DNA from: Trypanosoma brucei
Taxonomy: Eukaryota
Length of the DNA: 64,000 bases
Assembly (NCBI GenBank): GCA_000002445.1
Contig: CH464491.1
Location: 160,001 to 224,000, forward strand
Direction: 5' to 3'
The stretch's first letter is position 1. Each line of letters opens with the position of its first letter. A program made the position numbers and the translations under genes. Below are positions 12,244-29,938 of this stretch, piece after piece. The notes below the pieces were generated by a model. The model did not search any database. It was not told the DNA's origin and saw only the letters and a list, made by a program, of their open reading frames with translations.

Positions 12244-13335
12244 TATGGAATCAACCAGCTCAACGTAATACAAGACAAAGCTCTTACGAGGCCGTCACGC
12301 AATTCATACCAAGATTAATGTCGTTCACTAAATAGGCACCTAGAGGTTTTTCCCCGTTACCCTGTTGTGTCCAAAGATTATATGGAGGAAGACAGTCAGA
12401 GTGTGTATGCACATATGCCATAATCCCTTTCCAGCACCTACAAATAACGAAAAATAAAGTCACCAAGCGCTGGTGCGCCTGATGCAGAGGTATCATTTAC
12501 ATCAAATAAAAAAGGCTGTATGGCCCTAATATTGTCAACGCCAAAAACAAAAACCGTAGAATGTAAAAAAAAAGAACGCTTTGGGGGAAGAAACTTCGTT
12601 GATGTCCTCTCCCTCCCCCTTTTCGTTCAACTCACCTGCCATAGGTAGCTCTGTTCTTGAGCAAAAACAATACTTTGCCTTTCCAGCCCTCTATTCTTTC
12701 CCTTCGTTAATGCTGTCTCTCTTGTCACCTCGTATGTGTATATACATAAGTGTATATTGTTCTGCTCCTCTATACCACATCCGATGCGTGTTTTTGGTCT
12801 GCCGACTCGTTTGTGCACGCACCACAGTCACACTAATAAAACCTGTTGCGCACCGTTTTCCAGTTTTCAGCATCCCAAGAGGCTTTCCAACAGCAATATT
12901 TTTCCCACCTCTTCAACCCTATTCTCTCAACTCGGACGTTTTTGTTACGCTAAAGTGAAATTTTAAAAAAGGAGTATATCACCTTTCTTTTCCTCACCAC
13001 AGCACCATCTTTGACTCATCCGTGCTGGAATCTACCTCCCGCAGTTATGCTGTCCGTGGACAAGTCAAGCAACACAAGAACACAAAAAGGAGTGGCAACG
13101 GACAACAGAAAGACACAAACCGGAAAACGTAGGGAGAAACATTGTAAGCAGCAGCAGGTTCTGCCTGTGTCAATTCATTTTCCTGTATCTTTTTTCCGCA
13201 GTCTGTCTAACGAGCAACAAAAGAAGGGGAAAGATTTACTCACTTCTCTTTTTAAAATAATAATAATAAAGAAAAGGGAATGGCTACCCATCAGAAAAAC
13301 GTCTATTCAAATAAATAATAAAAGAGAGAGCCTAC

Positions 13336-13608
13336 CTATCCTGACTTGAACAGAAGAATTGCAACCTGTCCAAAGTAAAAGTACAGGAAGCTGTGCGTTT
13401 CGTGCGTGACATAACTGCCAAAGTTACGGCCAACAATACAGTGCCACGTAGGTTGATATTTCTTGTCAAACTCTTTTTTTATGTACGCCGCAATATCCTT
13501 CTCAATGTTGAACTTCTCCAAGGCTTGAAGAGCGACCTCCACTGCATCAGACTGCATGTCCTCTGGCATGTCTGCATTCTTAATAATAGCTTTCCGATCA
13601 GTAGACAT
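13336..13608 (-). CDS. Dynein light chain LC8 (DYNLL).
   Basis: The ATG at 13608 gives [90 protein letters not shown]. This is near-identical to canonical LC8 across its length of 90 aa. Confidence 0.92.
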
Positions 13609-14145
13609 CGTAAACGAACAATATAGCGGAGTTAATAATACTTCGAAGACAGAAAGAACTATATGGAAAAGAAAGATATGGGAAAACAAAATTTGAAGAA
13701 GATTCGAGTGTTAAACTACAAAAAATATTGCTTTATGTATCAGTTGACCGTTTGACAATATATATTAAACTAATTCCCATCTACGCGCTGTGGGGTTTCA
13801 ACCTGAAAACATCACAATATCATACATAAAGTACAGCTTTCCTCTTTTCTTTCGTTTTATCTCCTTCTTTTCCGATATCAATAGCAAACGCAAGGCATCC
13901 TGGTAGAGCCCTCCAACCGCGTAGTCTAATTAGTCCCTTCATTTTTGTATCTCCCTCTATGCGCATGTAGTACCTTAATAGATTTTCTCCTCTCTTTACA
14001 TTTGCAGTTGCCTGGTCAAAACCTGCAGACAATTCCTCCCACGTTCACAAAAATAAAGTACCCTCGCAAAGAAAGAGAAATAGAAAGAAATACAAATTTC
14101 TCTCTTCTTTTAAGAAAAATGAGGAGACTTTTTTTAACCCCTTAC

Positions 14146-14940
14146 TTACCTGAATATAATAAGATTCCTTTCACTATCAACAGACTTCTTCAGCTGCAGC
14201 TTTTCTTGTTCAGCGCTGTGGTCAACCTCAGCACAAGCTGGAACAAAATCCTTCGGTACTTTTAAAACTTTACCTGTTTCGAGCTTTATTTCTTTTGCTG
14301 GGCGTTTCATTTTGTTTTCCCAGTAAAGCTTCTCTTTCCGACGCTTCTCAAGCTCTTTTCGTTTGTTGTTTTCCGGTGGCTGAAAAACGATGGCATCACG
14401 ATCTCCGAAGAATAATTCATGGTAATGGCCGTTCGTTTGCTTCTTGGGGTCAAGCGAGCCGAGTACCGGGTTGTGCGGCATGGGTAGGGGTGTATTCGGA
14501 TCTATTGTGAACCTGATTATTGTACCATGATCACGACGAGGCGAGTGCTCGGTAGAAACCTCCACTCCAGCATCACGCTTCCCATTGGCCTTTCTTTTAG
14601 AAAAGGTAACGACGGCCTTTTTCTTATCAAGAACTTCCCTCATGTCGTCTGGAATCTTAGAGAAAATATGGTCTTCTTCGCGGGAAATATTCTCCAGTAA
14701 AGCAAGAGCATCTGAATGGAGAGAGACACCTTCTTTATCAGAAAGTGTTTTAACAGCACGAGAGACGAATGAAGTTACGTCGTCAATTCTTCTAGCATTT
14801 TCCCTGAATGCGCGTGCAGAAAGGATCCTTCGCATGACGTGTGCAGGGATATCAGCACCTGACGCGACAGCAGGGTCCTCCCCATTTTCATCCGCACTCA
14901 CTGAGCGGTTCATCTCGGGGCGCTCCTCCATCAGTTCCAT
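14146..14940 (-). CDS. Hypothetical protein of about 264 aa, basic and Lys-rich at the C-terminus. It is the first gene of the minus-strand transcription unit downstream of the retroelement.
   Basis: The first ATG is at 14940 (MELMEERPEMNRSV...); the track start at 15042 is a GTG. The frame is uninterrupted to 14146. I recognise no domain. Confidence 0.5.
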   Translation of the reverse strand: MELMEERPEMNRSVSADENGEDPAVASGADIPAHVMRRILSARAFRENARRIDDVTSFVSRAVKTLSDKEGVSLHSDALALLENISREEDHIFSKIPDDMREVLDKKKAVVTFSKRKANGKRDAGVEVSTEHSPRRDHGTIIRFTIDPNTPLPMPHNPVLGSLDPKKQTNGHYHELFFGDRDAIVFQPPENNKRKELEKRRKEKLYWENKMKRPAKEIKLETGKVLKVPKDFVPACAEVDHSAEQEKLQLKKSVDSERNLIIFR

Positions 14941-16731
14941 ACGCAACGATCTTTTCGTTAACCTTTCTCGATTATATTTGAAGTATATCCTCAACCTAAC
15001 CCTAGAATAAATTGGTAAGGCACAAGAGCTGCTTAGGGCCACCGGTCACTCCCGTAACTGCAAGAACAATATACTAATATACACACGTACATGCACGAAC
15101 AAAAAGTTCTGTTGACACTTACAGTTGCTTAAAATACTAAAACCAAAGACTGGGCTCTAAACCCAAATGCACACCGCGCCTTCACATAGAAACGCAACAT
15201 TTTAAGCCGCTGAGCATGAACAAATGATTGTGTCGTCTCAACGACACATGACCGAAGAGGTGCGCAAGGACGTCCAATGACACAACAAAAGAGTGACCAC
15301 CACAATGACAATCGTTGGGCGGCGCGTTTAATTGCATTACAACTACGTCGGTACCTTCGCACTAACCATACATTTTAGTTCAAGCCAGAGAGATAACCGT
15401 GTAAAAGAAAATTTCCGTCCTTTTTCGTGACAAACGAGAGAAAACAGCCAAAGGCAACGACTTTACAGGGGAAAGGACAGGCGCTGACGAGACCAACAAC
15501 ACCTAGACATTATGCAGTACCACCGCTGGGTCCTGGTAGCACCCTGTAACCCAACCCTAGCCTCACATGAACTGTCTAAAGCACAAAAGAACGCGGACGT
15601 CACCAGTTCCAACATTAAAAGGCTATACAATAGGCTTTCAGTGATCTATTCCTATCACTTGTTTGTCTCTCTTGCTCATCCGTGGGGGAGGGGGGAACAG
15701 ACACCAATACACACCTTTCAGTCGCTATCGCGAGTCGGACTCAATTCTGCCGCTATCGTGCATGGTTAAAAGTCCCCCTGTTGTCCAAATCCCAATCGGG
15801 TTTCACGATTTCGTTGACACTGCGGCGCCGGAGGTGCAATATCTATTACACAAAGTAACGTCCCCTCCGCATCAGACTCATTCTGCGGTTATCTCATACC
15901 ACTTTTTCGCTCTAAGTCTTCGTTATTTTTTTTTATACTAGCTCTTCTTCTTTCCGTCTTTCTCCCTTTCGCGGGTGTGTGAGAGTAACTCACTGTACAT
16001 GGCCTTTCGTGTGCGATCGTTGCGGATAGTGCTCACGTTCCCAACCCCTTACACAGGGCTAAGAAAGCGCGATGCAAGTGGAGAGCGAGTGCGGGATTGG
16101 TGACACCCCTGTGCCGCGAGGAGAAGCTATGCAGGCTTTCGCGAAGTCGCATACATCGTACGATCGGCCCCTTTACAAAACATTGTACACGAGAGTGTTC
16201 GAACCAGCAGCGGTTCAGTAAGTGTTACAACGTTTCCTTCCATTCGTTGCGCCGGCTTATGCCTTCGAGTGTCGCGTGGAAGCGTTGGCCCCTTCACTAT
16301 CAAGTGCACGCTTGATCCGATTGCACGGTGTGGCGCGCACACCGGGCACACCGCCGCTGCCGCGGGCGCCCTCTCGGCACACGAAGTCCATCGGTGCCAG
16401 CTTCCTGCGCTGGAGCCTAAATCCCTTCCCACTGCCATATGCTCCGCAGCGCCCTCCGGAACAACCCCCTTGACTAAACACTCTCTGGCATATACTGAAT
16501 TATGCATCATGATCCACAAGTCTTTCCTCGACTTGACTATAACGCTTGATCACTCCGAGGGGCTGGATAATCACAACAGTTCCGCCCCCACCTTGTACAG
16601 TATCACGTTTCAGCTTCTTTTGTAAGGTGACTGGAGGGTGCACACCGAAGTTGGGCAGGCAGAGGTTGCGTTGGCACTGCCTCTGCTTACGGTTTTTTTC
16701 CAGGGGAAACAATTCACCGTTAGTCCGTATC

Positions 16732-17131
16732 TTTTTTTTTTAATTCCCATCACAACACCATGTCGAGCAGCGGGTGCCAGCGCCTACGCCGTGTATAGCC
16801 CGTACGTTTCGTGCTAATCTCTTTCCTTGAGATAGCCCGGCGCAGTTCCACTGAATCCCGCGCGACGACGGGCTGGGATTCTCTTCCACATCACCGGACA
16901 GCAGCATCTTAGTGCGGATGATACTGCTGATGACACGCTGGCACGTGCCCAGGAACCGATAAATGAAAAACGGTGTCCCAGCATAACGCTGCTGATCCCT
17001 GTGCTGTATGATGCCGTAGCCGGAGCACAGCAGTGTTCCCCATGAAAGGAATACTGCTGGCTCTTGGCTTCCCCCGATGATACGGGATACTGGACCCTGG
17101 CACCACGTTGAGGTGGCCGGCATCACCAGGG
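16732..17131 (-). mobile_element. RIME-like short non-autonomous ingi derivative of 400 bp. It has the Pr77 hallmark, about 320 nt shared with the ingi 5' end including a degenerate 2A-coding start, a 70-nt unique tail and an A10 tail.
   Basis: The minus-strand read from 17131 is CCCTGGTGATGCCGGCCACCTCAACGTGGTGCCAGGGTCCAGTATCCCGTATCATCGGGGGAAGCCAAGAGCCAGCAG, the ingi/L1Tc/RIME Pr77 signature. Its next roughly 240 nt are near-identical to 20743-20960 of the adjacent element. It ends ...GGGAATT(A)10 at 16732-16741. The track ORF 16740..17162 (-) carries MLLSGDVEENPSPSS. Confidence 0.7.
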
Positions 17132-20100
17132 CGTACGTTTCGTACGAGTCGACCCCGTACATTGAACCCTGTGATGTAGATGCGATATTGGAATACTCCT
17201 CGTTTTTGGCTGATCTACCTTGAGTGAGTCGGCACGCACACTGCCAGCTGTGAGTTCTCGGTTGGAAAAAGATCCTGGAAATGCATACGAAATTCGGGGA
17301 ATCGCCGCATACTGATGTTCATGGTGCATCCGCAGAAACAAATCCGTGCTTGCTCACCTTCCATATTTCCGGACTTGATTGACACCAGCCACGAGCTCTG
17401 CATTCACGCCATCTCGTTGTAATGCCAGCGTGTGTCAGAGTGTTTTTCACTGCCGTAATGTTCGTACTGATTGGTGGAGCTTGTGGCCATGTAAACCGAT
17501 CTTTGTTCGGGTTAGCCTCTCAGGCACAGCGGTGTTACTCGCGGGTTGATATTTCGCAGCAACCATTCACAATGCAAGGAGACGGCGATGCGCAAGCTCT
17601 CTTCCACCGTTCGCCAAGTGCCTCCTCTCGCGTCACGCCGCTGGAAGTGAATACGAACTGCAGCCCAATGCTCGCTTTCCTGCTTTCTATCTTTAGGACT
17701 GGTCGCCATAGCTCTCGTGCAGGCGGTTCGATAGCACTCAATGAGCCATTTGCTAGCGCAGTGGGGAGAGACGGCGAGTTGTTGAAAATCGACAGTTTCC
17801 TCATCGTTTTCTCCCGCATGGAGAGGTTCTTTAGTACACTCCGCGCACCAAGCTCCAGAACAATGCATTCCGCTCTGTAACTGCATGAGAGTTTCCCTGC
17901 TCCTGTCTTGGGTGCACAAATCAGCGTGTTGTTTCTATAGAGCAGGGCAGCTGCCCCGGACTTCTCACCGAGGGACACGGATCCATCAGTCCACAATTCG
18001 TAGTGCTCTCGTCGCGGTGGCTCCTTCCCCCTCCGTGCAAAATGCCGTGCAATCCACTTTTCGGAAGCCTCCCTTTTGACATCGTCAGGGTCATCAGCGC
18101 ACACAGGCTTTATCTGCGTGTGAAATATCGGTCGGCAGCTGTGGTGAAGCGTCGATGTCTCTAGTGGGTGCTCGCGTGGCTCAATGTGGAGGTGGGGGTA
18201 GAACCGCATGATGCGGGAATGTAAGACTCTGACTGGATGTTTGCTGTGGTATACTTCCTCAGCACTGCGCCGCAAACATCCGCCTCGTGACTCACACATC
18301 AGCATGAATTTCATGCTGCGCACAAGAGTGGCCGTCTTGAGTGGCAGGAGGTTTGCTTCCAGCAGAGAGTCCTCTTTGCGCGTCCCATGCTGTATGCCGG
18401 CTGTGATGCGACTGGCTTTGTGTTGTGCTGCTGCAAGGAGGTCGCGACTTCGTTTTGAAGCGTCCCAGTACCATACCTCAATGCCATGCATGGTGTGTGC
18501 CTGTACGAGTGCTAGATAAAAAGCTCTCAGCACTTGTCGTCTTGGCCCCCATGTAGAAGCTGAGATGGCTGCTATCTGCAGTAGTCGGAAGTCCATCTTG
18601 CGTCTCGTTTCGGCCGCATGTGTTGCCATCCCCTGCAGACTCTGGAATGTTACTCCAAGAAGCTTTAGTGTCCTGTCAGCTCCTATTCTTTTGCCGTCGA
18701 GTTGTAATGTAAGGGAGTGCCGCTCTATACACCCGAAGAGTGTGCACTTTGTTTTCGCTACGTTGACAGACATGAAGTACTCTTTTGACCACTGTAACAC
18801 CACGTTTAGACCGCATTGTAGTGTGTGGTTGATGACATCCCTCTCTGTGTGCCTCGCAAGTATCGTTAGGTCGTCTGCAAAGAATCCGTGCTGCAGTAAC
18901 GGCACTTCTGCAAGGCGTTGGCTCAACGAGTTCATGACAATAATGAACATGATTGGGCCAAGGACAGTTCCTTGTGGCACTCCTCGCTCAAATGTTCTGC
19001 TTCTGGAAAGCTTCTCCTTGAATCTCACTCTGCCAGTTCGGTTACTCAGAAATGATACGCACCACTTCACAATGTGGGGTGATACCTTCATTCTGTGCAT
19101 TTCCCTCGCAATTTTGTCGTGGTCTACTGTATCAAATGCCTTCTCGTAGTCAACGAATACAGCACCCGTACGAGATTGGTGCGTGGGGCGGCAGAGGGCA
19201 GCGCGGACGTGCAGGAGTTGTTCGAGCGTTGAGCATCCGGGGCGAAAGCCTGATTGCTGCGGCGTCAGCTGGGACTCAACAGTGTCTCTAAGTCTCGCGG
19301 CAATTATGCGCTCCATGACTTTGCAGAGACAGCTCGTGAGCGTCACAGGCCTGTAAGAATCGAGGTCCTCCGCCTTTTTTCCGGCCTTCAGGATGGGGAT
19401 GATAACACCAGTCTTCCATGCAGGCGGCACGACTCCCGTTCGTAGGCTCTCATTGAATAGCCTCAGAACAACATTCAGCGCTGTTCTACCGAGATGTTGC
19501 AGTGCCTCGTTGTATAAGCAATCAGGTCCGGCTGCGGATCCACTCGGTAGCAGTTTGATCGATCTCCGTAGTTCAGCCATCGTGATGGGACTGAACTCAC
19601 TCGCTATCGTCTTTATTGGTGCCGGTGGGTGTGAGTCGGTGTGCCTTCTTGCGCGGGACGAGTACAGTTTAATGAACCTCTCAGCTTGACGGTAGTCCGT
19701 GATGGCCGCGTTATCAACAAGTACAGCCGGTGTGGTTAGTGGTCGTGGCGCATATACCTTCTTGAAAATGTGCCAACTGCAGCGGTCTGACACCGCAAGT
19801 CTGGAGTATAGCGTGCTCCATCTCTTCTTTGTGATACGGTCCAGGATCTGCTTACGCGTGGCTACCAACTTTTCCCCTCGGTGGGAGGGTCCGCATCCAG
19901 CGATCTCTTCATCGAGTTTCGCGAGCTCAGGTGTCCAATGTGGTGACGTTGCTCTGCAGCCACGGGGGACGGAGACCTTCGTCGCAATGCGGATGGCGGA
20001 GCTCAATTTCTGTTCCAGGGTGTTGACGTTCTTCTTTCTACCAATTTTCCTGCAGTACTCGTCAACCTTCAGACGGAAATTCCTCCAGTCAGCTTTTAGC

Positions 20101-20965
20101 CATGCGTACATGGGCTTTCGAGGCCGCGGGCAGCTCAGCGCATCTGTGTCGTCTCCAACGATAACATCGAAAAATATGTGATGGTGATCGCTATTGGGAG
20201 AATGAAGCGATGTCCACGTGTACACTGTGCAATTCCTTGACAGTGTCACATCAGGGGTGGACTCCCCGTGGTGGCGCGCGTTCCTGGTGCACTCACCAGT
20301 GTTGCAGACCAGAAACTGGTTGTCAATGCGCCACTGTGTGAGGGTTTCACCCTTGGTATTTGGTGGGCTCGCGCGATCCGATGCCAACGCGTGTGCGTTA
20401 GCGTCTGCACCGATGAGCTGTGAACTTTCAGTCGTCAGAAGCGTATCTAGGTCAGTTGCCGTGAAGGTGTGTTTTGGTGGGATGTATGCCGACGTGACAG
20501 TCAGCGCCGTTCCACGTGCAAGGTGAATTGTTGCATGCACTTGTTCAATGCGACCAATAACATGCATACCGGTCTCGACTGGTAGGTCCTCCCTCACTAG
20601 TATTGATACACCACCTCCTTTGCAGTTACGAGCTATTCCGTGATGTTGGTAGCCAGCAACGCTAAAGCAAGCCGCCTCTCCAGGCGTCATCCTTGTCTCG
20701 CTCAACAGACAAAAGGCGATCCGCTCATCAACAAGGGTTTTGTGGAGTGCTAATCTCTTTCCTTGAGATAGCCCGGCGCAGTTACACTGAATCCCGCGCA
20801 ACGACGGGCCGGGATTCTCTTCCACATCACTGGACAGCAGCATCTTAGTGCGGATGATACTGCTGATGGCACGCTGGCACGTGCCCAGGGACCGACAAAT
20901 GAAAAACGGTGTCCCAGCAAGACGCTGCTGATCCCTGTGCTACATGACGCCGTTGCCGGAGCAAA
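17132..20965 (-). mobile_element. ingi/L1Tc-clade non-LTR retrotransposon copy of about 3.8 kb. It is 5'-truncated just inside Pr77 and has no poly(A) of its own before the next element.
   Basis: The single ORF encodes 2A, AP endonuclease, reverse transcriptase (FADD) and RNase H (WTDGS). Its 5' region is near-identical to the short element at 16812-17040. The conserved Pr77 block is not seen at its 5' end. The 3' boundary is assigned at the point where the Pr77 of the next element starts. Confidence 0.8.
17535..20843 (-). CDS. Retrotransposon polyprotein of 1102 aa. It comprises an N-terminal 2A peptide (DVEENPGP), an apurinic/apyrimidinic endonuclease, a reverse transcriptase and RNase H.
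   Basis: The ATG at 20843 gives MLLSSDVEENPGPSLRGIQCNCAGLSQGKRLAL... RT motifs are present: ...DYEKAFDTV..., GVPQGTVLGPIMF and FFADDLTIL. The RNase H motif is ELWTDGSVSLGEKSGAAALL. There are no internal stops. An overlapping frame at 17512..17919 (-) holds Cys/His-rich remnants, possibly the C-terminal zinc-finger region out of frame. Confidence 0.9.
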   Translation of the reverse strand: MLLSSDVEENPGPSLRGIQCNCAGLSQGKRLALHKTLVDERIAFCLLSETRMTPGEAACFSVAGYQHHGIARNCKGGGVSILVREDLPVETGMHVIGRIEQVHATIHLARGTALTVTSAYIPPKHTFTATDLDTLLTTESSQLIGADANAHALASDRASPPNTKGETLTQWRIDNQFLVCNTGECTRNARHHGESTPDVTLSRNCTVYTWTSLHSPNSDHHHIFFDVIVGDDTDALSCPRPRKPMYAWLKADWRNFRLKVDEYCRKIGRKKNVNTLEQKLSSAIRIATKVSVPRGCRATSPHWTPELAKLDEEIAGCGPSHRGEKLVATRKQILDRITKKRWSTLYSRLAVSDRCSWHIFKKVYAPRPLTTPAVLVDNAAITDYRQAERFIKLYSSRARRHTDSHPPAPIKTIASEFSPITMAELRRSIKLLPSGSAAGPDCLYNEALQHLGRTALNVVLRLFNESLRTGVVPPAWKTGVIIPILKAGKKAEDLDSYRPVTLTSCLCKVMERIIAARLRDTVESQLTPQQSGFRPGCSTLEQLLHVRAALCRPTHQSRTGAVFVDYEKAFDTVDHDKIAREMHRMKVSPHIVKWCVSFLSNRTGRVRFKEKLSRSRTFERGVPQGTVLGPIMFIIVMNSLSQRLAEVPLLQHGFFADDLTILARHTERDVINHTLQCGLNVVLQWSKEYFMSVNVAKTKCTLFGCIERHSLTLQLDGKRIGADRTLKLLGVTFQSLQGMATHAAETRRKMDFRLLQIAAISASTWGPRRQVLRAFYLALVQAHTMHGIEVWYWDASKRSRDLLAAAQHKASRITAGIQHGTRKEDSLLEANLLPLKTATLVRSMKFMLMCESRGGCLRRSAEEVYHSKHPVRVLHSRIMRFYPHLHIEPREHPLETSTLHHSCRPIFHTQIKPVCADDPDDVKREASEKWIARHFARRGKEPPRREHYELWTDGSVSLGEKSGAAALLYRNNTLICAPKTGAGKLSCSYRAECIVLELGARSVLKNLSMREKTMRKLSIFNNSPSLPTALANGSLSAIEPPARELWRPVLKIESRKASIGLQFVFTSSGVTREEALGERWKRACASPSPCIVNGCCEISTRE

Positions 20966-21380
20966 GCACTGCTCCAAACAAGAGGAACAATGACGTTCCG
21001 TCTGTGCAGAAAGCGAGTTTATGGGCCTTGGGGCCGCGGTGGTGTGGGTGATGTTTTCGTTGAATGAAAAGGCCCCGCCGCCTCATTCGCGTTGCGCGGG
21101 AGGAAGATCAAACCACCTCAGATGTGAATGTTTTTGCTTACTGAAATAAAGCTGTGCTGTGCCAGTCTCGGCGTGTCCGGTGTTTGCGCACCTGAAACTC
21201 CCCTTTGTGGTGCAATATCTTCTTTAGGGACTGTTCGAGTATGTCGGGGTTTTCAGGGACAGCGCGAACCTACTGCGCGCGGTGGATTGGGCTCATTTTC
21301 CAAGGCGGAGTGGTGCCGGTTCTTGGATGCACGGCCGGTCCGCAGCTGCGAGTTCGTCAGCGCCAGCCCTTCGGACCTCA

Positions 21381-21390
21381 GGGGGGGGGG
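21381..21390 (+). repeat. G10 homopolymer inside the strand-switch region.
   Basis: cctca gggggggggg aagtt is read directly. Confidence 0.9.
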
Positions 21391-22049
21391 AAGTTAGGGC
21401 CTGTTTCCCTTTCTAAATCCCCTCAACTACTGTTGGTTAAAAGAATGCAGGGAGTAGAACCGGAGGGGGGAAGCGTCGGGTCCGCCCCGCGTGAAAGCGG
21501 CTGGGGCGTACGACAGGCTTCGCGAGCTGGGGGCGGTTGTGTTTCGCGTGGGTCCGTTATATTTACCCCTTCCGTTTGTATCTCCACTAAAGAGAAAGTG
21601 GTGTCCCGATCCACACTGTATTGCTTCGCCGTGTGCAATTGCTGTGCCGCTGGGGAGTGCCTTACGGCGTCGTGGGACCGACGTGGCTCGGGGACTTAAG
21701 GTGCGCCCTTAAACACCGTGGCTGCTGCCTGGTCATGTGTTTATGCTTTGCGATGTGAGGCATTGTGGGGTCGGGCCTTTATGCGGACCCCTGAGGCGTT
21801 AGTATGCTTGTTTCTCTCGATCCTCTCTGTTTGTGCGCGTATGTTTTCCCCCTCCATGTTTTAGGGAGGGCGGTGGATGGGGAGATGTCACTGAACAACG
21901 TAGCTGTTGATTATTGCTGCTATGTTATTTTATTTTCCTAAGGCCACATTGTGGTGCCTAAATACCTGGGTTATCGTCACGCGCATTTATCATTTTTCTA
22001 TTTAGCCTTTATAGCTGATCCTTCTTTCAAATACATTTGCTTGTTCTAG

Positions 22050-22054
<5 letters not shown>

Positions 22055-22110
<56 letters not shown>
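22055..22110. repeat. (TA)n microsatellite of about 28 units.
   Basis: tatata... is read directly from about 22055 to 22110. Confidence 0.95.
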
Positions 22111-22113
<3 letters not shown>

Positions 22114-24484
22114 TGCAAATGGCATCTTGGTGCACTTGTTCCGTTGCCGGGGTGATTATTTTCAGAGCGTATATACACCGCTTGTGGGTGATCGCGGTTT
22201 CAAGCCGGTTTGCTTTTGTTTTTGAGGACATGTATTGGGGGTGTTACCACTTTTTTGTTAATTGATATTGTGCACTTTTTTGTTTCGGTAAAAAGAAAAA
22301 AAATGACAGTGATATTATTTTTTTTTTTCGCTTACCTTCTATACATATATATATACTTGTCGGTGATACGTGTTTGTGTTTGGTGCTGATAATGCTTGCG
22401 CTGGGAGTTTCTTTTGTTGGTGTTTGTTTTCTCTGTAAATAAGATCGGCTTTCATTTCACTAATAGTCCTTGTAATATATCTTTTTTTTCTTTTTTTTCT
22501 AGGGGGCCATTAGTGCATGTAAGGAGCACTCTTAAGGGAACTTTTGTCAGCAGAATAATCAATGGTAAGTGTTGTACTTTGGCCATTGCGAGTGCGCTGG
22601 ACTTTGGGAGCTGGTACTGATACTTCTGTCTTGACGGATTCAAAAAAAAGACAAAAAACTTCACAACTTTTTCCGAAAGAAAGTGAAGTTTATCCTCTCA
22701 AATCAAGTGCGGATCTGTCGCTTTGCACACGCGCTGGTTGACAATAGATCGATGAGTGACATGTCTGATCACCCTGTGGTGCGGGTCTTTATTAATTGTC
22801 TTGCTCTTTATTGATTCATCTGTGCTTTGGCGACGTAGGCGGAGTAGAGGATTGCCAATTCCGTCCTTTGGAATGGTTTACCGTCTTATTTTATTTTGTT
22901 AACCCAGTTGTCTTATGTGTAATCCTTTATCGGCCGGTGCGAGCTGTGGGTGGGATGCCGATCGTTTTTTCTTCTGCAACGGCAGAGAGTAGTGCTGATG
23001 GATATCGGTAAAGGGTGTTTGCTGCGTTGGTGAAGTGAGTATGTCGATGGAAGGGTACGCATATAATTAATATATCTGGTGCTTTTTCTTCTTATTGAGT
23101 AGCTTTTGAGAGCTCGGGACGGTAAAGTTAGTTGCCGCATTAGGTGTATGTTGTTCTGGTTAATTTCTGTTCAGATCCTTACGGTAAGCACGAAACCATT
23201 ACACCTGGTATGCTTTAATCCGTTAATTCAGGCGGTTCCACATTTGGTTCAATCACTGAAATACAGCTGAATTTTTAAATTCTTGTTTTAAAATTACCTC
23301 ACTTAATAAAAGGAAGGAAATGACACATCAAAGTAATGGAAATGCTGCATTGTACACCTGTGGGTGAGCTGATGAAGTAATAAAATATGGACCCGCGCGT
23401 TAAAGCCGTTTGTTTCCATCAGCAATGCCCTCGTGTCGGTTGTTTTCCCTTTTTGTCTTTCCATTATTCCACTGTAAGTAGTTTGCTTGAATTACGGTTT
23501 GATAAAAGGAACTGATTCACCTGGGTGTCTGCCGTAGTCGGAAGGGTGGGCGGAAACGTTGCTGTTTTCTGTGAGGTAGTTAACTCTTTGCTGCTATAAT
23601 CTTTACAATACCGTTTTAAGATGTGTATGTTATTTTTAGGTGTAGTTTCCTGGCATTTTTGTGGACAGATGATGTTTGTCTACGTTTATGGAACCAGTAA
23701 GTAGGAAAAGATGTATGAATTAACAAAAGGTATTTGTGCATCAGTGACTAGCGTTTTTTCCTCGTGTACAGTAATGTCTCTCTGGTACAGTTATTAATTG
23801 TTAGAGCGCGGTGCTGTGATCTCGGGTGTAACAACTGAATCTTTTTTTTGTTTCCTTGCTGAAGTGTATGGCTCTTTCTGGAATAACACATATGTAATTA
23901 TGCCATTGCTTACAGTGGAAGTAGGGGTGGCTAACATAATGATTTGTCCTTTTGATAACACTGTATTGAAGGAAGAATTATCGCTCTTTTAGTTTTCCTG
24001 TTCTTTGTCTGTGGTCTTGTAAGTTGGTGATATTGTGTATTAAGCTTTCAATTTTTCTTTATAATTTGCAGTAGGCAGTTGTCTCTTGCGGTCATTTGGC
24101 CTACGGTATAGGATGTGTTAAGGTGTAGCTCACGTAAGTAAAGTTCATGATCGAATTCTTTTTGATTTTCGTTTTCACACATTTGATCCTTAAAGACTTA
24201 CACATGCCCTCTTTTTCATTATTATTATCTTGTTCATGAGTTGATGCGACATTGGTGGGTAGGGTTAGATGACCTTTTCTCTTTGACGCAATATGTCGCG
24301 GTTGTTACGTTCGCTTAGACACCAACGTCTCTTGTTTGTTATTTATGTATATTTGGGTACAACCGTTTTTCATTCGTTTCCCTTTGTCTTATAGTAACTT
24401 CATATATATATATTAATTTTAACGAGTTTGTATTTTTGTTTTCCTTACAATTATTGTAACCTACCATTCGGTTTATCACCCATA

Positions 24485-24549
24485 CTATTATTACCCTTAT
24501 TTTTCTTTCTTGATATAGACCTTGAGTTCTTCTGCTTTAAATCTACACA
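24485..24549 (+). promoter_or_regulatory. Pyrimidine-rich tract with a downstream AG. It is the probable trans-splicing acceptor region for eIF5A.
   Basis: The sequence ttattacccttatttttctttcttgatatagaccttgagttcttctgctttaaatctacacaATG fits the kinetoplastid poly(Y) plus AG splice-acceptor architecture immediately 5' of the first ATG. Confidence 0.4.
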
Positions 24550-25050
24550 ATGTCTGACGATGAGGGACAGTTTGCCGAAGGCGGAGCGCAGGTGGGCTCT
24601 CTGACGTATCCGATGCAGGCAGGCGCTCTGAAAAAGGGCGGCTACATTTGCATTAATGGACGTCCGTGCAAGGTAATCGATCTTTCAGTGTCAAAAACTG
24701 GAAAACACGGTCATGCAAAGGTGAGCATCGTTGCCCTTGACATTTTCACCGGAAACAAGATGGAAGATCAGGCCCCCTCAACTCACAACGTTGAGGTGCC
24801 CTTCGTGAAAACTGCAACGTACAGCGTACTGGACATTCAGGAAGATCGTGAAGACCCCAGCAAGCCAGCTCACCTTTCGCTCATGGACGATGAGGGTGAG
24901 ACTCGGGATAACCTGGACATGCCTCCCAACGCGGAACTCGCAGGGCAAATCAAGGAACAGTTTGATGCAGGAAAGGACGTTTTGGTCGTTGTTGTTTCTG
25001 CTATGGGAATTGACCAGATTCTCAGTTTCAAGAATGCAGCTGAGCGATAA
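24550..25050 (+). CDS. EIF5A: Eukaryotic translation initiation factor 5A (eIF5A, hypusine-containing).
   Basis: The ORF starts at an ATG and encodes 166 aa. It carries the hypusination loop [12 protein letters not shown] ([13 protein letters not shown]) and the overall eIF5A fold signature (GRPCKVIDL..., C-terminal OB region). Confidence 0.95.
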
Positions 25051-25393
25051 GGCCGTAAGTTCTAGGTTAATATATTTTTTTCTTTATCTTTTTCTATACA
25101 ATGTCTTAAAAGAAGAGTATGAGACACCCATGTTCTAAATTGTTAGCTGATTTTGTCGAGAATAGGGGTTATGTAGCCCCGTGTCCGTGTTTGACGTTGT
25201 TGATGTAACTCTCGTGCTAAGAGGTCATGAAAATTTGCCTCTCCCAGCTTCTCTTTGTGCTTTACAAACACATACACACACAGAAAAAAAAGGAGCGCAT
25301 AACGAGCGGTTGTATATATGTATGTGTACGTACACAATAAGGATAGAGGAGAGACTAGGAATACTTTCTTCACGAGGATAAGGCCCTTTTAAT

Positions 25394-28348
25394 ATGACAA
25401 GCAAACATAGTGCTGTATTAACTATAACCGAAAAGGGTGATTGGAGAACTGCGAAAAATGGCGAGAAGGTATGGCGGTATATGGTGCAAACGGCACCGAC
25501 GATGAGAGCTCGCTGCAGAAAATGTTCACAACCTATTTTAAAAGGTGACCTGAAATGGGGAACTCCTATACGTCATTCCCATGGAGCGTATGGGTGGATT
25601 ACCGCCTGGCATCATGTGGGGTGTACGAGAATTGCTGAACGTAAGGGCTTTAGTGACATAGTACATGGAATAGACTTACTTCCACCTGAGAAACGGGCGC
25701 AGGTCGTTGCGGAGGTGACATCCGACTCGATGCCTGAGCATTTACTACCTTTGAATCCTGACGATTTAGTAAAAAAACCTCTTCTTCCCGAAACTGAAGC
25801 ACCAGCTGAGTTGCTAAGACCACTTCTTCGTTATCAAAAGGAGGGTCTTGGCTGGATGGTGTCACAGGAGTTGTCTCAAGTTAAGGGGGGAATATTGGCT
25901 GATGAAATGGGTATGGGTAAAACAATCCAGATGATCAGTCTTTTTCTCGCCCGTCGCCTCGTGGGACCTACACTGGTTGTTTGCCCAGTTAGTTCAATGC
26001 TCCAGTGGGAATCTGAGGTGAAAGACCATGTGGTGTCCGGTTCCCTTTCGGTGGTAGTGGTGAGCCGTACCAAAAATGTGAGAAGGGATGATATTCAAAA
26101 TGCTGATGTGGTTTTGACTACGTATCCGATGCTCGAACAGTCTTGGAGGGAGCTAGTCAACAAGAAAAGAGTTCCATGCCCTTACTGCCAACAGCTTTAT
26201 TTGCCGCGGCAGCTTGTTGTGCACAATCGGTATTTTTGCGGGCCTCATGCAAAGAAAACTTCTAAACAGGCGAAGCGTGAAAAACGACAAGGTGGCACTG
26301 GTTCTTCTCCCACTCGAAAAGTTCAAGCAAAAGAAACGATTATGAAGGGGCTTCGTACGTTGCGTGTCGATGTTGACGATAACGCGGAGGAAGGGGAGGA
26401 TTCTGTGTTCGAGGAAGGACCACGGGGTGTTGTTGGACCAATGGGCTTGTATCGTGAGCTCATGGTTGAGGCCGGGCGCAAAGTTAGGAGCCGTTGGGAC
26501 CCCGCGTACGTGGGAAGTGACAGCAGTGGGGATACCAACAATTCTACCACAGAAAGTTCCACCTCATCGGAACGGGATGACTCAGAGGAGGTGTTGTCGA
26601 AAGAGGAGGTGGCCGATGACAAGCTTAGCTCGTTCCGGTGCTTGCACTGCGGGTTTCAGTTGCTACGATACCCGTTTTGCCCTAAGATAGGGCAATGTCA
26701 CGTTCTCTCTGATTATATGAAACAAATAATTGAGACTGACGACGGTAGTGACGGCGTTGACCTATCTCAATCAGTTTTCCACTCGGTAACCTGGAGTCGG
26801 ATTGTTCTGGACGAAGCTCATAGAATAAAAGGTAGCAACACAAGTACGTCAAGGGCTGCCTTTGCCTTGGTAGGTGAGCACAGGTGGTGCCTCACGGGAA
26901 CCCCTCTACAAAATCGTGTAGGGGATGTGTACAGCCTGGTTCGTTTTCTACGGTTGGCGCCTTATGCAAGGTATTATTGTGGAACTGAGGGGTGCTCCTG
27001 CTCGTCCTTTTCTCATCCATTTTCTGGAAATGATTTACGACACTGTATATTTTGTGGTCATGGACCGGTCCAACATTATGCTTATTTTAATCGCCATATT
27101 TTAAATCCTATAATACGTTATGGTTACGTTGGCGACGGCAGGCGGGGAATGATGATGCTCTCTAATGAAATCCTCCAGAAGTGTATGCTGAGGAGGACGA
27201 AGGCCGAAAGAGCAAGCGACTTGCACTTGCCGCCAATGACCGTGGAAACGTTCCAAGTAAAGCTGACCGATGAGGAGAGAAGCTTCTATGAGTCGTTGTA
27301 CAAAAAAAGCACTGCCGCTTTTGATACCTTTGTTGAGAAAGGAACGGTGCTTCATAACTATGCCCACATCTTTCAACTTTTGAGTCGTTTGAGGCAGGCT
27401 TTGGATCACCCACTGATTGTCATTAATTCTATGAATGTCGGTGGCTCGTCGTGCTCGAAGGGGATGTGTGGAATTTGCACTGAGAGTTGTGGAGAGAACT
27501 CAGTACAGGTTGACCCTTGTAAGCATACCTTCCACCGGATTTGTCTTTCGCAATTTGTCGAAAGCCAACCTTTAAAGGAATATAATTGCCCTGTGTGTTA
27601 TGTGGCTATCAACATCGACCTGCGGAGTCTACACTCAGGGTGGGACGAAGACGGTGCCCAACCTGTTCTTCCTCCAGAGTTAGTTCACTCAGACAACGAA
27701 AGCGATGAAAACAACGTTGAGGAGGAAAGTAAAGGGAGGAAACTAGATGATTCTGCGGAGGGGAAATCCGCTCGAGCGAGATCGGTCAAGAAACGAGGCA
27801 TACTCTCCCGGATTGATTCATCAAAACCTCTTCGAGGGACGAAACTGGATGCCATAACAGAATACATTTGCAGCATTCCAGAGGAGGAAAAGGTAATTGT
27901 GTTTTCTCAATTTGGGGATACTCTGGACCTCATTCAGTTGTGGTTACAGAAGGTGAAAGTAAAGACGGTGAAACTTGTGGGGTCGCTCATGTTATCGCAG
28001 CGGCAAGCGGTTCTCAGGGCTTTCTTGCATGATAAGAGCGTTCGAGCCATCCTTATTTCTCTCAAGGCCGGTGGGGAGGGTTTAAATTTACAAATTGCTA
28101 ACCATGTTGTACTTGTTGATCCTTGGTGGAATCCCGCGGTTGAAATGCAGGCGGCGCAGCGAGCCCATCGTATTGGGCAGACGCGACCCGTTCGCGTGGT
28201 CCGTTTTGTCACTGAACGTTCTGTAGAGGAGCGCATGTTGGAGTTACAAGAAAAGAAGATGCTGGTTATTGAGGGGACTATCGATGGTAAGGTAAGTTCG
28301 CTGCAGAGTCTTAGCGAGGATGATCTTCAGTTTCTGTTCACGAGGTAG
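25394..28348 (+). CDS. SNF2-family DNA-dependent ATPase with an N-terminal PARP-type zinc finger and an embedded RING finger (RAD5/RAD16-like DNA repair protein).
   Basis: The ORF starts at an ATG and encodes 984 aa. The N-terminal zf-PARP-like module is WRYMVQTAPTMRARCRKCSQPILKGDLKWG...HSHGAYGWITAWHHVGC. The SNF2 N-terminal motifs are LLRYQKEGLGWMV, ILADEMGMGKTIQ and DEAH. The RING is CGICTESCGEN...PCKHTFHRICLSQ...CPVC. The helicase C-terminal motifs are LISLKAGGEGLNL and VDPWWNPAVEMQAAQRAHRIGQTRPV. Confidence 0.9.
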   Translation: MTSKHSAVLTITEKGDWRTAKNGEKVWRYMVQTAPTMRARCRKCSQPILKGDLKWGTPIRHSHGAYGWITAWHHVGCTRIAERKGFSDIVHGIDLLPPEKRAQVVAEVTSDSMPEHLLPLNPDDLVKKPLLPETEAPAELLRPLLRYQKEGLGWMVSQELSQVKGGILADEMGMGKTIQMISLFLARRLVGPTLVVCPVSSMLQWESEVKDHVVSGSLSVVVVSRTKNVRRDDIQNADVVLTTYPMLEQSWRELVNKKRVPCPYCQQLYLPRQLVVHNRYFCGPHAKKTSKQAKREKRQGGTGSSPTRKVQAKETIMKGLRTLRVDVDDNAEEGEDSVFEEGPRGVVGPMGLYRELMVEAGRKVRSRWDPAYVGSDSSGDTNNSTTESSTSSERDDSEEVLSKEEVADDKLSSFRCLHCGFQLLRYPFCPKIGQCHVLSDYMKQIIETDDGSDGVDLSQSVFHSVTWSRIVLDEAHRIKGSNTSTSRAAFALVGEHRWCLTGTPLQNRVGDVYSLVRFLRLAPYARYYCGTEGCSCSSFSHPFSGNDLRHCIFCGHGPVQHYAYFNRHILNPIIRYGYVGDGRRGMMMLSNEILQKCMLRRTKAERASDLHLPPMTVETFQVKLTDEERSFYESLYKKSTAAFDTFVEKGTVLHNYAHIFQLLSRLRQALDHPLIVINSMNVGGSSCSKGMCGICTESCGENSVQVDPCKHTFHRICLSQFVESQPLKEYNCPVCYVAINIDLRSLHSGWDEDGAQPVLPPELVHSDNESDENNVEEESKGRKLDDSAEGKSARARSVKKRGILSRIDSSKPLRGTKLDAITEYICSIPEEEKVIVFSQFGDTLDLIQLWLQKVKVKTVKLVGSLMLSQRQAVLRAFLHDKSVRAILISLKAGGEGLNLQIANHVVLVDPWWNPAVEMQAAQRAHRIGQTRPVRVVRFVTERSVEERMLELQEKKMLVIEGTIDGKVSSLQSLSEDDLQFLFTR

Positions 28349-28384
28349 GTCGTGGACTGCAGCCCGCCTTTCTGCCTTCTGTTC

Positions 28385-28410
28385 AAAACAAAACAAAACA
28401 AAACAATCCT
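28385..28410 (+). repeat. (AAAAC)5 pentanucleotide repeat just 3' of the SNF2 gene.
   Basis: caaaacaaaacaaaacaaaacaa is read directly. Confidence 0.85.
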
Positions 28411-28701
28411 ATTAATGTGTTTGTTATCTCTTTTCTAAAATTCAGTGTGAACGGCGACTTTGGTTGTGTGTGCTGCACTTGAAAAGGGTAAATACATGGT
28501 GTTCCACTAGGTCATCCAACATTAACTCGTTGACTGGTCAGTGTTAACTCTAAACGAAGAACTCTCCGTGCTTTGAATTAGTTTCTGTTTTCTTTTTTTT
28601 TTTCGTACTGGTATTAGTGGTGGAGGAAAAAATTTAAAAGGGTGATTTATAATCGCAACAACAGGATATATATACAAGCTTAAAGGACCCATACTGTCAG
28701 A

Positions 28702-29928
28702 ATGGGTGTTTCGCTACCAAAGCCTGTCATGACGCACCTGCGGGAGCGCTGCGGGAATGACATATTTCGTTGCGGCTCTAGTTGCGTTAACGGATACCGA
28801 GAAAGTATGGAAGATGCACATCTCGTCTACCTTCAACCTTCATGGGGGTTCTTCGGTGTTTTCGACGGTCATGTTAACGATAATTGTTCACAATTTTTGG
28901 AAGGTGCTTGGAGGTCTGCCCTTGAGAAGGAAAGCATGCCCATGTCGGATGACCGCATGAAGGAGCTTACTCTCGCCATTGACAAAGAATGGATGGACAA
29001 GGCCTGTGATGGTGGGAGTACGGGTACCTTTTTCGTTGGCATGAAAGAAAACAACACCGTTCATCTGCAGGTGGGGAACGTGGGTGACTCGCGTGTTTTG
29101 GTTTGCGTTGACGGTAAAGCCAGGGCTATGACGGAGGATCACAAGCCGAACAACGCAGATGAAAGACGCCGAATCGAGGAGTGCGGTGGTCGTGTGGAAA
29201 GCAACCGCGTGGATGGAAGTCTAGCTGTAAGTCGGGCCTTCGGAGATCGGGACTATAAGGCAAATCCAAGTGGTGGCCAGCTTTCGCAGAAGGTCATCGC
29301 TCTCCCAGATGTGACTCATGTGGACGTGACTTGGGATAGCAAAGACTTCGCCGTACTATGTTGTGATGGTGTTTTTGAAGGTCAATTTTCCAATGAAGAG
29401 GTTGTGGACTTTATTAAGGAACAGATGGAACAAACGGATGACCTCGGCCTCATAGCCGGAAGAGTTTGCGAAGAGGCTGTCAATCGCGGTAGTCGCGACA
29501 ATGTGTCCTGTGTCATCGTCCAGTTTAAGAGCGGCAAAGATTATGCAACAGCCGAGCACCTGGAGGTAGTTCCCGGACCGTTTTCCGTCCCCCGCAACGG
29601 TACTTTCCGCAAGGTGTACAGTCTCATGGCGGAGAAGGGGGGCATGACAACGCAAGAGGTGCTAGAAAAGCGTTACGACTATCTGGCATCCCTGGAGGAT
29701 AAGACAGCGCATATGGAAGAGTGGAAGGGCTTCAAGGATGGTCCACCGGCGAACCTGGAGGGAAAGGAGCGCACGGAATGGTTTTCTGAGCTCTTCGAGC
29801 AGTACGCAGCGGAAACTCCGTCAGACCCCAGGTCGGACAACATGGAGCGCATCCAAATGCTGCAGCAGCAGATAGGCATTCCGTTGCCCATGTTGCTTTC
29901 CATTATGTCGGGGCAGTCGGAAGAATGA
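28702..29928 (+). CDS. Protein phosphatase 2C (PPM family).
   Basis: The ORF starts at an ATG and encodes 408 aa. PP2C motifs are present: YRESMEDAH, FFGVFDGH, VGNVGDSRVLV, DHKPNNADERRRIEECGG, SLAVSRAFGD and CDGVFE. An N-terminal MGxS signal suggests possible myristoylation (MGVSLPK). Confidence 0.92.
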   Translation: MGVSLPKPVMTHLRERCGNDIFRCGSSCVNGYRESMEDAHLVYLQPSWGFFGVFDGHVNDNCSQFLEGAWRSALEKESMPMSDDRMKELTLAIDKEWMDKACDGGSTGTFFVGMKENNTVHLQVGNVGDSRVLVCVDGKARAMTEDHKPNNADERRRIEECGGRVESNRVDGSLAVSRAFGDRDYKANPSGGQLSQKVIALPDVTHVDVTWDSKDFAVLCCDGVFEGQFSNEEVVDFIKEQMEQTDDLGLIAGRVCEEAVNRGSRDNVSCVIVQFKSGKDYATAEHLEVVPGPFSVPRNGTFRKVYSLMAEKGGMTTQEVLEKRYDYLASLEDKTAHMEEWKGFKDGPPANLEGKERTEWFSELFEQYAAETPSDPRSDNMERIQMLQQQIGIPLPMLLSIMSGQSEE

Positions 29929-29938
29929 GTCCACATGT

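What the first reader, a model, noticed from the sequence alone, without database searches (positions are those of the whole stretch)
20805..20843. A canonical 2A self-cleaving peptide (DVEENPGP) sits at the very N-terminus of the retrotransposon ORF
MLLSSDVEENPGP lies directly after the start codon and fits the D(V/I)ExNPGP ribosome-skipping consensus. The flanking context (..SSIIRTKMLLSxDVEENPGP in the sister copy) matches the ingi/TSR1-type 2A rather than the T. cruzi L1Tc type (..LLLSGDIEQNPGP). That supports an African-trypanosome origin. It also means translation would release a very short N-terminal peptide.
Basis: partly seen in the sequence, partly recalled or inferred. Interest (0 to 1): 0.5.

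Follow-up and report, generated by a model that had tools for sequence, protein, structure and literature searches.

The report
Known ingi 2A peptide, dead copy
The motif is real, but it is the already described ribosome-skipping "2A" peptide of the Trypanosoma brucei ingi retrotransposon; it seems to sit right at the start of the protein only because this copy has lost its true 5' end and picked up a stop codon upstream.

Summary
MLLSSDVEENPGP is encoded at 20843..20805 on the minus strand. It follows the first ATG of a 1102-aa APE/RT ORF. It is the only NPGP in the six frames, where about 7.5e-5 D[VI]ExNPGP matches are expected. It is the known 2A-like peptide of T. brucei ingi, reported active by Heras 2006 and Odon 2013.

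"At the very N-terminus" is an artefact of a defective copy. In two intact T. brucei-group ingi 5' ends the ORF starts at an ATG inside the Pr77 hallmark, 72 codons upstream. The finding's Met is therefore residue 73, and the Gly/Pro skip site is residue 84/85.

Copy A lacks the first ~80 nt of the element, so it has no Pr77 and no canonical ATG. It also has an in-frame TAG at 20942..20940. Its 2A has Ser instead of the Gly found before the Asp in all 12 relatives aligned; every tested substitution there inactivated FMDV 2A.

The "sister copy" (16907..16869) reads NPSP, not NPGP. Copy A is a chimera: about 3.1 kb of young ingi sequence flanked by unrelated or degenerate ingi-like sequence.

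A T. brucei-group origin is supported, but by DNA identity rather than by the 2A flank. Verdict: an ordinary relic of a known element.

The parts
20805..20843 (-). ATG (ingi residue 73) followed by the 2A core: MLLSSDVEENPG|P. The Gly codon is 20810..20808 and the Pro codon is 20807..20805. Ser replaces the family's Gly at 2A position 11.
   Evidence: sequence and translation; alignment with 12 ingi-clade N-termini.
20805..20864 (-). The 20-residue 2A-equivalent stretch SSIIRTKMLLSSDVEENPGP. Its first 7 residues lie upstream of the only usable ATG.
20940..20945 (-). ATG-TAG. The in-frame stop (20942..20940) replaces the CAG (Gln) of intact ingi and cuts the leader reading frame 32 codons before the Met. 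The ATG (20945..20943) replaces ATA (Ile).
   Evidence: No other ATG lies between it and 20843 in any frame.
17535..20843 (-). ORF of 1102 aa with APE endonuclease and reverse transcriptase domains and a degenerate RNase H-like tail. A full-length ingi/L1 protein is 1500-1760 aa.
   Evidence: ORF; Pfam RVT_1 8e-46 and Exo_endo_phos_2 3.6e-9, no RNase H hit; homology; PMC3820030 for full-length size.
17865..20988 (-). Young ingi segment, corresponding to element positions ~80-3205. It is 95-96% identical to four individual ingi copies and 97-98% identical to their majority consensus.
17144..17864 (-). Degenerate ingi-related (DIRE-like) continuation. It is collinear and at first in frame with the ingi protein, but identity falls well below that of the young segment (27-46% in the more distal pieces) and DNA similarity is lost.
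16813..17131 (-). Copy B, the 'sister copy': the first ~320 nt of an ingi/RIME. It has the Pr77 hallmark (17131..~17053), the canonical ATG at 17123, an open leader frame, and a 2A relic at 16907..16869 reading MLLSGDVEENPSP.
   Evidence: The orthologous copy in L006 also reads NPSP.
17132..17143 (-). ACGAAACGTACG, the upstream copy of a 12-bp direct repeat flanking copy B. The downstream copy is at 16812..16801.

Best explanation
The motif is the 2A-like ribosome-skipping peptide of the Trypanosoma brucei ingi non-LTR retrotransposon, preserved as a relic in a defective copy.

In an intact ingi, translation starts at an ATG about 9 nt into the element, inside the Pr77 hallmark. An ~84-residue leader ending in ...SSIIRTKMLLSGDVEENPG is made. 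The nascent 2A in the ribosome exit tunnel blocks formation of the Gly84-Pro85 bond and the leader is released. Translation then continues, or does not, into the APE-RT-RNase H-zinc finger protein. The mechanism and activity are taken from the literature; the position is shown here.

This copy cannot do that. It begins at element position ~80, so it has no Pr77 and no canonical ATG. It carries a CAG>TAG nonsense codon in the leader. Its 3' half is replaced by degenerate ingi-like sequence. The internal Met73 therefore becomes the first ATG of the open frame, which makes the 2A look N-terminal.

Inferred: even if Met73 were used, skipping would probably be poor. The pre-skip peptide would be only 12 residues long and would carry a Gly>Ser change at 2A position 11.
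For: - Identity of the element: the best protein hits are T. brucei-group ingi proteins at 86-96%. Over 20988..17865 the DNA is 95-96% identical to ingi copies in L002-L005.
- Canonical start: P0030 and P0032 (T. brucei group), P0031 and P0039 (T. grayi, T. theileri), and window copy B all open with MP(A/V)..W.QGP inside Pr77. In P0029 (T. grayi) the same Met is internal, because its annotated ORF starts 27 residues further upstream. The frame runs open into the 2A.
- In four copies that have Pr77, CCCTGG lies 239 nt before the Asp codon.
- Copy A homology to all four references starts only at element position ~80-98. Its upstream flank has no significant similarity to Pr77 (score 8 against a shuffle mean of 8.6).
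- There is a TAG at 20942..20940 where the others have CAG.
- Gly at 2A position 11 is present in 12 of 12 other sequences; copy A has Ser.
- Sharma 2012: Gly at position 11 in 41 of 52 2As, and all tested substitutions there inactivated FMDV 2A (PMC3326317).
- Upstream context matters. N-terminally truncated 2A-like sequences had very low activity (PMC3708506). A P2A shortened by 5 residues gave about 8% skipping (PMC12338488).
- Other copies carry decayed versions: NPSP (copy B and L006), NPRP (L005), DVEKNTGP (P0028).
Against: - No expression data were available. I cannot show that Met73 is never used, or that this copy is untranslated.
- The effect of Gly11>Ser is extrapolated from FMDV 2A. 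Three of the 52 catalogued 2As have neither Gly nor His at that position, so Ser might be tolerated in the ingi context.
- The Met is present in all nine T. brucei-group sequences examined, so an alternative-start role is not formally excluded.
- A pyrimidine-rich tract followed by AG (TTGTTCCTCTTGTTTGGAG, ~20995..20977 on the minus strand) could in principle accept a spliced leader. The ATG-TAG would then be a one-codon uORF and Met73 the first long-ORF start.
- Heras 2006, the primary paper, was not readable here.
Confidence: 0.9

Rival explanations
1. This is a working 2A placed directly after the start codon. Translation starts at the ATG at 20843, releases the 12-residue peptide MLLSSDVEENPG, and continues with a Pro-initiated endonuclease/RT.
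For: - The ATG at 20843 is the first ATG of a long (1102 aa) open frame.
- The D[VI]ExNPGP motif is intact.
- No other ATG lies between the upstream TAG and this ATG.
- N-terminal 2A-like sequences do exist in nature: 26-aa examples in sea urchin NLR proteins (PMC4981915), and P0008 starts MAGDVEENPGP.
Against: - In intact family members this Met is residue 73.
- Copy A lacks Pr77, which the literature gives as the internal promoter and a possible site for translation initiation (PMC1874656 abstract; PMC3820030).
- It has the Gly11>Ser change.
- A 12-residue leader is shorter than the 18-23 residues that define 2A peptides (PMC13405545), and truncated forms are weak.
- The ORF lacks a recognisable RNase H domain and the zinc-finger C-terminus, so the product could not act as an autonomous retrotransposition protein.
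Confidence: 0.05
2. Met73 is a conserved alternative initiation codon in T. brucei-group ingi. It would let 5'-truncated or Pr77-less copies express the enzyme with a mini-2A leader.
For: - Met is present at this position in all nine T. brucei-group sequences seen.
- Two database proteins, P0028 and P0035, are annotated as starting there.
Against: - T. grayi, T. theileri, T. congolense and T. vivax have Leu at the equivalent position.
- P0035 starts there only because its locus has ATA instead of the Pr77 ATG.
- P0028 has a destroyed motif, DVEKNTGP.
Confidence: 0.04
3. The motif is a chance match with no relation to 2A peptides.
For: About 0.85 NPGP tetrapeptides are expected by chance in six frames of 64 kb, and one is seen.
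Against: - About 7.5e-5 matches to the full D[VI]ExNPGP motif are expected, and none occurred in 100 resamples.
- The motif sits at the homologous position of a documented 2A, upstream of the APE domain of an ingi element.
Confidence: 0.01

Closest known systems
Ingi (Tbingi, also called TSR1) 2A-like sequence of Trypanosoma brucei (Heras et al. 2006; Odon et al. 2013)
   Same: - Same element family: about 95% DNA identity over 3.1 kb.
[quoted passage not shown]
- Same sequence apart from one residue: ..SSIIRTKMLLS(G>S)DVEENPGP.
- Same D(V/I)ExNPGP motif.
- The published TSR1 string SSIIRTKMLVSGDVEENPGP is recalled from memory. It could not be found in the held library.
   Different: - This copy has Ser for Gly at 2A position 11.
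- It lacks the 72-codon upstream leader as translatable sequence, because of the missing Pr77 ATG and the TAG at 20942..20940.
- It sits in a non-autonomous chimeric element.
L1Tc2A of Trypanosoma cruzi L1Tc
   Same: - Same clade (ingi/L1Tc).
- Same location at the 5' end, in frame with and upstream of the endonuclease.
- Individual genomic copies carry motif mutations that change activity (PMC3894237; PMC5814959).
   Different: - The upstream context differs and the motif is DIEQNPGP (from memory).
- No T. cruzi sequence appeared among the hits here.
N-terminal 2A-like sequences of sea urchin NLR proteins (Roulston et al. 2016)
   Different: - Those are 26 aa long and double as signal sequences (PMC4981915).
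- Here only 12 residues would precede the skip site, and the N-terminal position arises from truncation and mutation rather than being a family feature.
DIRE (degenerate ingi/L1Tc-related elements) of T. brucei
   Same: The 3' flank of the young ingi segment (17864..~17144, and possibly beyond copy B) keeps collinear protein similarity to ingi that is much lower than in the young segment, with catalytic motifs lost. This matches how DIREs are described.
   Different: - No 76-79-bp signature, poly(A) tail or target-site duplication could be assigned to it.
- The central 3.1 kb is young ingi sequence, so the whole is a chimera rather than a plain DIRE.

Membership tests
2A / 2A-like ribosome-skipping peptide (class A, GD(V/I)ExNPGP type) | C-terminal motif D(V/I)ExNPG|P | tested here: met
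   DVEENPGP at 20828..20805(-). Copy B fails this feature with DVEENPSP.
2A / 2A-like ribosome-skipping peptide (class A, GD(V/I)ExNPGP type) | Gly (or, in cardiovirus-type contexts, His) at position 11, immediately before the Asp | tested here: not met
   Ser in copy A; Gly in all 12 other aligned ingi-clade sequences. Gly occurs in 41 of 52 2As, and all tested substitutions inactivated FMDV 2A (PMC3326317).
2A / 2A-like ribosome-skipping peptide (class A, GD(V/I)ExNPGP type) | An appropriate translated upstream tract, giving a total of about 18-23 residues or more in the nascent chain | tested here: not met
   Only 12 residues lie between the sole usable ATG and the skip site, with a TAG 32 codons further upstream. 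For the length requirement. Intact ingi copies meet this feature with about 84 residues.
2A / 2A-like ribosome-skipping peptide (class A, GD(V/I)ExNPGP type) | Demonstrated skipping of the Gly-Pro bond during translation | not testable with these tools
   This needs an in vitro translation or cell reporter assay. Activity of the canonical ingi 2A is reported in the literature (PMC3708506).
Ingi (Tbingi) autonomous non-LTR retrotransposon | 76-79-bp 5' signature (Pr77 hallmark) | tested here: not met
   Copy A homology starts at element position ~80-98. Its upstream flank scores no better than shuffles against Pr77. Copy B has the signature.
Ingi (Tbingi) autonomous non-LTR retrotransposon | High nucleotide identity to ingi copies | tested here: met
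   95-96% identity to four copies and 97-98% to their majority, but only over 20988..17865.
Ingi (Tbingi) autonomous non-LTR retrotransposon | A single ORF of about 1500-1760 aa with APE, RT, RNase H and C-terminal zinc-finger domains | tested here: not met
   The ORF is 1102 aa. Pfam finds RVT_1 and Exo_endo_phos_2 only. The RNase H and zinc-finger regions are degenerate, at 27-46% identity with stops and frameshifts. The size range is from PMC3820030.
Ingi (Tbingi) autonomous non-LTR retrotransposon | 3' poly(A) tail and a ~12-bp target-site duplication | tested here: inconclusive
   No poly(A) tail or duplication could be assigned to copy A. A 12-mer, AGATATTGCACC, occurs at 21220..21209 and 15844..15833, but it is not adjacent to a Pr77 or an A-run.

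The most novel reading that the evidence does not exclude
The internal Met73, which is conserved within the T. brucei group, could act as a back-up start codon. Pr77-less ingi fragments embedded in polycistronic transcripts would then be translated from it. In that case a 12-residue 'mini-2A' at the extreme N-terminus, even with Ser at position 11, would still skip. It would release a dodecapeptide and a Pro-initiated endonuclease/RT. That would lower the minimal length known for a working 2A and would mean that truncated ingi copies contribute enzyme in trans.
Probability: 0.03. Interest if true: 0.55.

Novelty: already known. Interest (0 to 1): 0.1.

Why it matters
It matters little beyond annotation. 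The 2A-like peptide of ingi/L1Tc elements has been published and tested since 2006.

There are two practical lessons. First, ORF callers, and readers of raw sequence, will place the 2A "at the N-terminus" in any ingi copy that has lost the Pr77 ATG. Two database proteins, P0028 and P0035, are annotated that way. Second, single-residue changes (Gly11Ser here; NPSP, NPRP and NTGP in other copies) mark individual copies as decayed.

Had the N-terminal reading been true, it would have redefined the minimal length of a 2A peptide. The evidence does not support that reading.

Tried and rejected
- Plus-strand reading of the coordinates gives RAGILFHITGQQH, which is irrelevant.
- A second NPGP in the window does not exist. 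The sister copy is NPSP.
- A degenerate Pr77 upstream of copy A was rejected. Local alignment scores 8, against a shuffle mean of 8.6.
- Rfam at gathering thresholds found nothing in the whole window, so no curated HDV-like ribozyme family reports the Pr77 of copy B.
- Published strings of the trypanosome 2A sequences (SSIIRTK, IIRTKML, LLLSGDIEQNPGP) are not in the text of the searchable library. Neither Luke 2008 nor the 2021 review mentions trypanosomes. Heras 2006 is not held. A search on 'TSR1' returned an unrelated T. brucei splicing protein.
- An exact-protein look-up of the 1102-aa ORF found no record, so the source assembly of the window was not identified.
- The GCA_001457755.2 contigs break or carry N-gaps at this locus, so they cannot show whether copy A is orthologously present there.
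- A target-site duplication for the whole composite was sought. Only one 12-mer pair was found and it is not convincingly placed.
- None of them would change the verdict.

Full report
**Observation**

The coordinates 20805..20843 make sense only on the minus strand. The plus strand reads RAGILFHITGQQH. The minus strand reads ATG CTG CTG TCC AGT GAT GTG GAA GAG AAT CCC GGC CCG, which is MLLSSDVEENPGP. The ATG at 20843..20841 is the first ATG of a 1102-aa ORF, 20843..17535(-).

This is the only NPGP in the six-frame translation of the window. From the window's own amino-acid frequencies, about 0.85 NPGP but only about 7.5e-5 D[VI]ExNPGP matches are expected. One hundred first-order Markov resamples gave none. 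The motif is therefore real and not a chance match.

**What the element is**

Pfam finds a reverse transcriptase domain (RVT_1, 8e-46) and an endonuclease-reverse transcriptase domain (Exo_endo_phos_2) in the ORF, but no RNase H. The closest proteins are ingi fragments from the Trypanosoma brucei group, at 86-96% identity. Next come T. grayi and T. theileri 'Tbingi' proteins at about 46-65%, then T. congolense and T. vivax elements at about 40%.

Window 22575..38354 is 99.8% identical to a contig of NCBI assembly GCA_001457755.2. Window 1..17017 is 98.1-99.7% identical, block by block, to another contig of the same assembly. To my knowledge, from the contig prefix CZPT, this assembly is the T. 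equiperdum OVI draft. Ingi copies fetched from T. b. gambiense DAL972 (L002) and T. b. equiperdum (L003-L005) match window 20988..17865 at 95-96%. A T. brucei-group origin is therefore supported by direct DNA identity.

**Where the ingi ORF really starts**

Two T. brucei-group proteins (P0030, P0032), T. grayi P0031 and T. theileri P0039 all begin MP(A/V)..W.QGP... In T. grayi P0029 the same Met is internal, because its annotated ORF starts 27 residues further upstream. All five run without interruption into ...SSIIRTK(M/L)LLSG(D/N)VEENPGP. At the DNA level this ATG lies about 9 nt into the element, inside the CCCTGG... Pr77 hallmark. In the four copies that have Pr77, CCCTGG lies exactly 239 nt before the Asp codon of the motif.

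The Met of the finding is therefore residue 73 of the canonical ORF, and the Gly|Pro skip site is residue 84/85. This agrees with Odon et al. [quoted passage not shown] They also state that the ingi and L1Tc sequences had been tested and were active (PMC3708506; see also PMC5814959, and PMC3894237).

**Why the 2A looks N-terminal here**

Copy A aligns to all four reference ingi copies only from element position ~80-98, which is window 20988 or 20971. The flank upstream of that point has no significant similarity to Pr77: the local alignment score is 8, against a shuffle mean of 8.6. The canonical ATG is therefore absent.

Within the retained leader, the codon that is CAG (Gln) in every other copy is TAG at 20942..20940. 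It is preceded by an ATG that replaces ATA. The 32 codons between that TAG and the ATG at 20843 (HRDQQRLAGTPFFICRSLGTCQRAISSIIRTK) are homologous to ingi coding sequence and contain no other ATG in any frame. An ORF finder therefore has to start at Met73.

The same thing has happened in databases. P0035 is annotated as starting MLLSGDVEENPGP because its locus (L003) has ATA in place of the Pr77 ATG.

**State of the 2A itself**

The D[VI]ExNPGP motif is intact. However, the residue before the Asp (2A position 11) is Ser (AGT), whereas all 12 other aligned ingi-clade sequences have Gly. Sharma et al. 2012 found Gly at this position in 41 of 52 2A peptides. They also report that all mutations at position 11, including His, inactivated FMDV 2A (PMC3326317).

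Starting at Met73 would leave only 12 residues before the skip site. 2A peptides are defined as 18-23 residues long (PMC13405545). N-terminally truncated non-LTR 2A-like sequences had very low activity (PMC3708506). A P2A shortened by five residues gave about 8% skipping (PMC12338488). The inference that this copy's 2A would work poorly or not at all is reasonable, but it has not been tested.

**The 'sister copy'**

The only other homologous stretch in the window is 17131..16811(-), which is 92-93% identical to the first ~320 nt of ingi. It has Pr77, the canonical ATG at 17123 and an open leader frame. Its motif, however, reads DVEENPSP, because GGC has become AGC at 16907..16869. The same NPSP allele is present in the orthologous GCA_001457755.2 contig.

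Other copies show similar decay: NPRP plus a stop and frameshifts in L005, and DVEKNTGP in P0028. Of the six T. brucei-group 5' ends examined as DNA, only L002 and L004 combine the Pr77 ATG, an open leader and an intact GDVEENPGP.

**Architecture of copy A**

Identity to the majority of the four references is 97-98% from about 20966 to 17865. It then falls abruptly to 37-53% on both sides. On the 3' side the sequence stays collinear, and at first in frame, with the ingi protein. Identity drops sharply after ...SCSYRAEC (27-46% in the more distal pieces), RNase H motifs are lost, and frameshifts and stops follow. This is what the literature calls a degenerate ingi-related element, or DIRE (PMC3820030).

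Copy A is thus a chimera: about 3.1 kb of young ingi sequence set in older or unrelated flanks. Gene conversion or recombination with an old element is the most economical reading, but that is inference. Copy B interrupts the degenerate 3' part and is flanked by a perfect 12-bp direct repeat, ACGAAACGTACG.

The whole composite lies between a minus-strand gene array (up to 15042) and a plus-strand array (from 24550). That layout is a divergent strand-switch region, which is where such elements are reported to accumulate (PMC4748587 abstract).

**Mechanism**

For the family, taken from the literature: the nascent 2A in the exit tunnel prevents formation of the Gly-Pro bond, the ~84-residue leader is released, and translation of the enzyme may or may not resume. 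This has been proposed to down-tune the amount of enzyme made (PMC3894237; PMC5814959).

For this copy: it is a non-functional relic. The chain of evidence is as follows.
- Shown here: loss of Pr77 and the ATG, the nonsense codon, and the truncated or degenerate ORF.
- Shown here as sequence, with the effect inferred: the Gly11Ser change.
- Inferred: a leader too short for skipping.

**Rival readings**

Three rivals were considered.
- Met73 as a conserved back-up start codon: about 4%. It is Met in all T. brucei-group copies but Leu in the other species.
- A chance match: refuted.

**Verdict**

The motif and ATG are real, but on the minus strand; 'canonical' and the sister-copy reading are wrong.
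The ingi-type 2A and T. brucei-group origin hold; the N-terminal position and 12-residue leader do not apply to the family.
- The feature is already known, and interest is low.

Noticed in passing
window 17865..20988 (-) and its flanks: Copy A is a chimera. It is 97-98% identical to the ingi majority consensus across about 3.1 kb, with abrupt falls to 37-53% at ~20970 and 17865. The 3' flank remains collinear with the ingi protein but at much lower identity (DIRE-like). This suggests gene conversion or recombination between a young ingi and an old degenerate element.
   Followed up: yes
window 16801..17143 (-): Copy B consists of only the first ~320 nt of an ingi/RIME (Pr77, ATG, leader, dead 2A). 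It has no 3' part or poly(A) tail, yet it is flanked by a perfect 12-bp direct repeat, ACGAAACGTACG (17143..17132 and 16812..16801). That is odd for target-primed reverse transcription. One possibility is a full insertion followed by a microhomology-mediated deletion. The structure is conserved in the GCA_001457755.2 contig (L006).
   Followed up: partly
window 21209..21220 and 15833..15844: An exact 12-mer, AGATATTGCACC (minus-strand reading), occurs on both sides of the whole ingi/DIRE composite, about 5.4 kb apart. The chance expectation for such a pair is roughly 0.03. It is not adjacent to a Pr77-like start or an A-run, so its meaning as a target-site duplication is unclear.
   Followed up: no
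window ~15042..24550: The retroelement composite occupies a divergent strand-switch region. All large ORFs and called genes below ~15 kb are on the minus strand. All those from 24550 onward are on the plus strand: eIF5A, a SNF2/RING/zf-PARP helicase, PP2C, a cyclin and others.
   Followed up: partly
L001 (contig end at window 22575); L006 2778..2787, 6156..6165, 8650..8661, 9021..9030: The draft assembly GCA_001457755.2 breaks at this locus. One contig ends 1.6 kb from copy A. The other has an N-gap inside the Pr77 of copy B, and a 360-bp block (window 13315..13674) is placed out of order between the short unaligned stretches listed above. This looks like mis-scaffolding in that draft and not a feature of the window.
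   Followed up: partly
window ~20977..20995 (-): A pyrimidine-rich tract followed by AG (TTGTTCCTCTTGTTTGGAG) lies at the 5' boundary of the ingi homology. It could in principle act as a spliced-leader acceptor. The ATG-TAG at 20945..20940 would then be a one-codon uORF ahead of the ATG at 20843. This is pure speculation and was not tested.
   Followed up: no
P0008 (metagenome protein): A distant non-LTR homologue from an ENA assembly begins MAGDVEENPGP. The motif therefore sits only three residues after its annotated start, followed by a Cys-rich region before the endonuclease. This may be another truncated annotation or a genuine N-terminal 2A.
   Followed up: no
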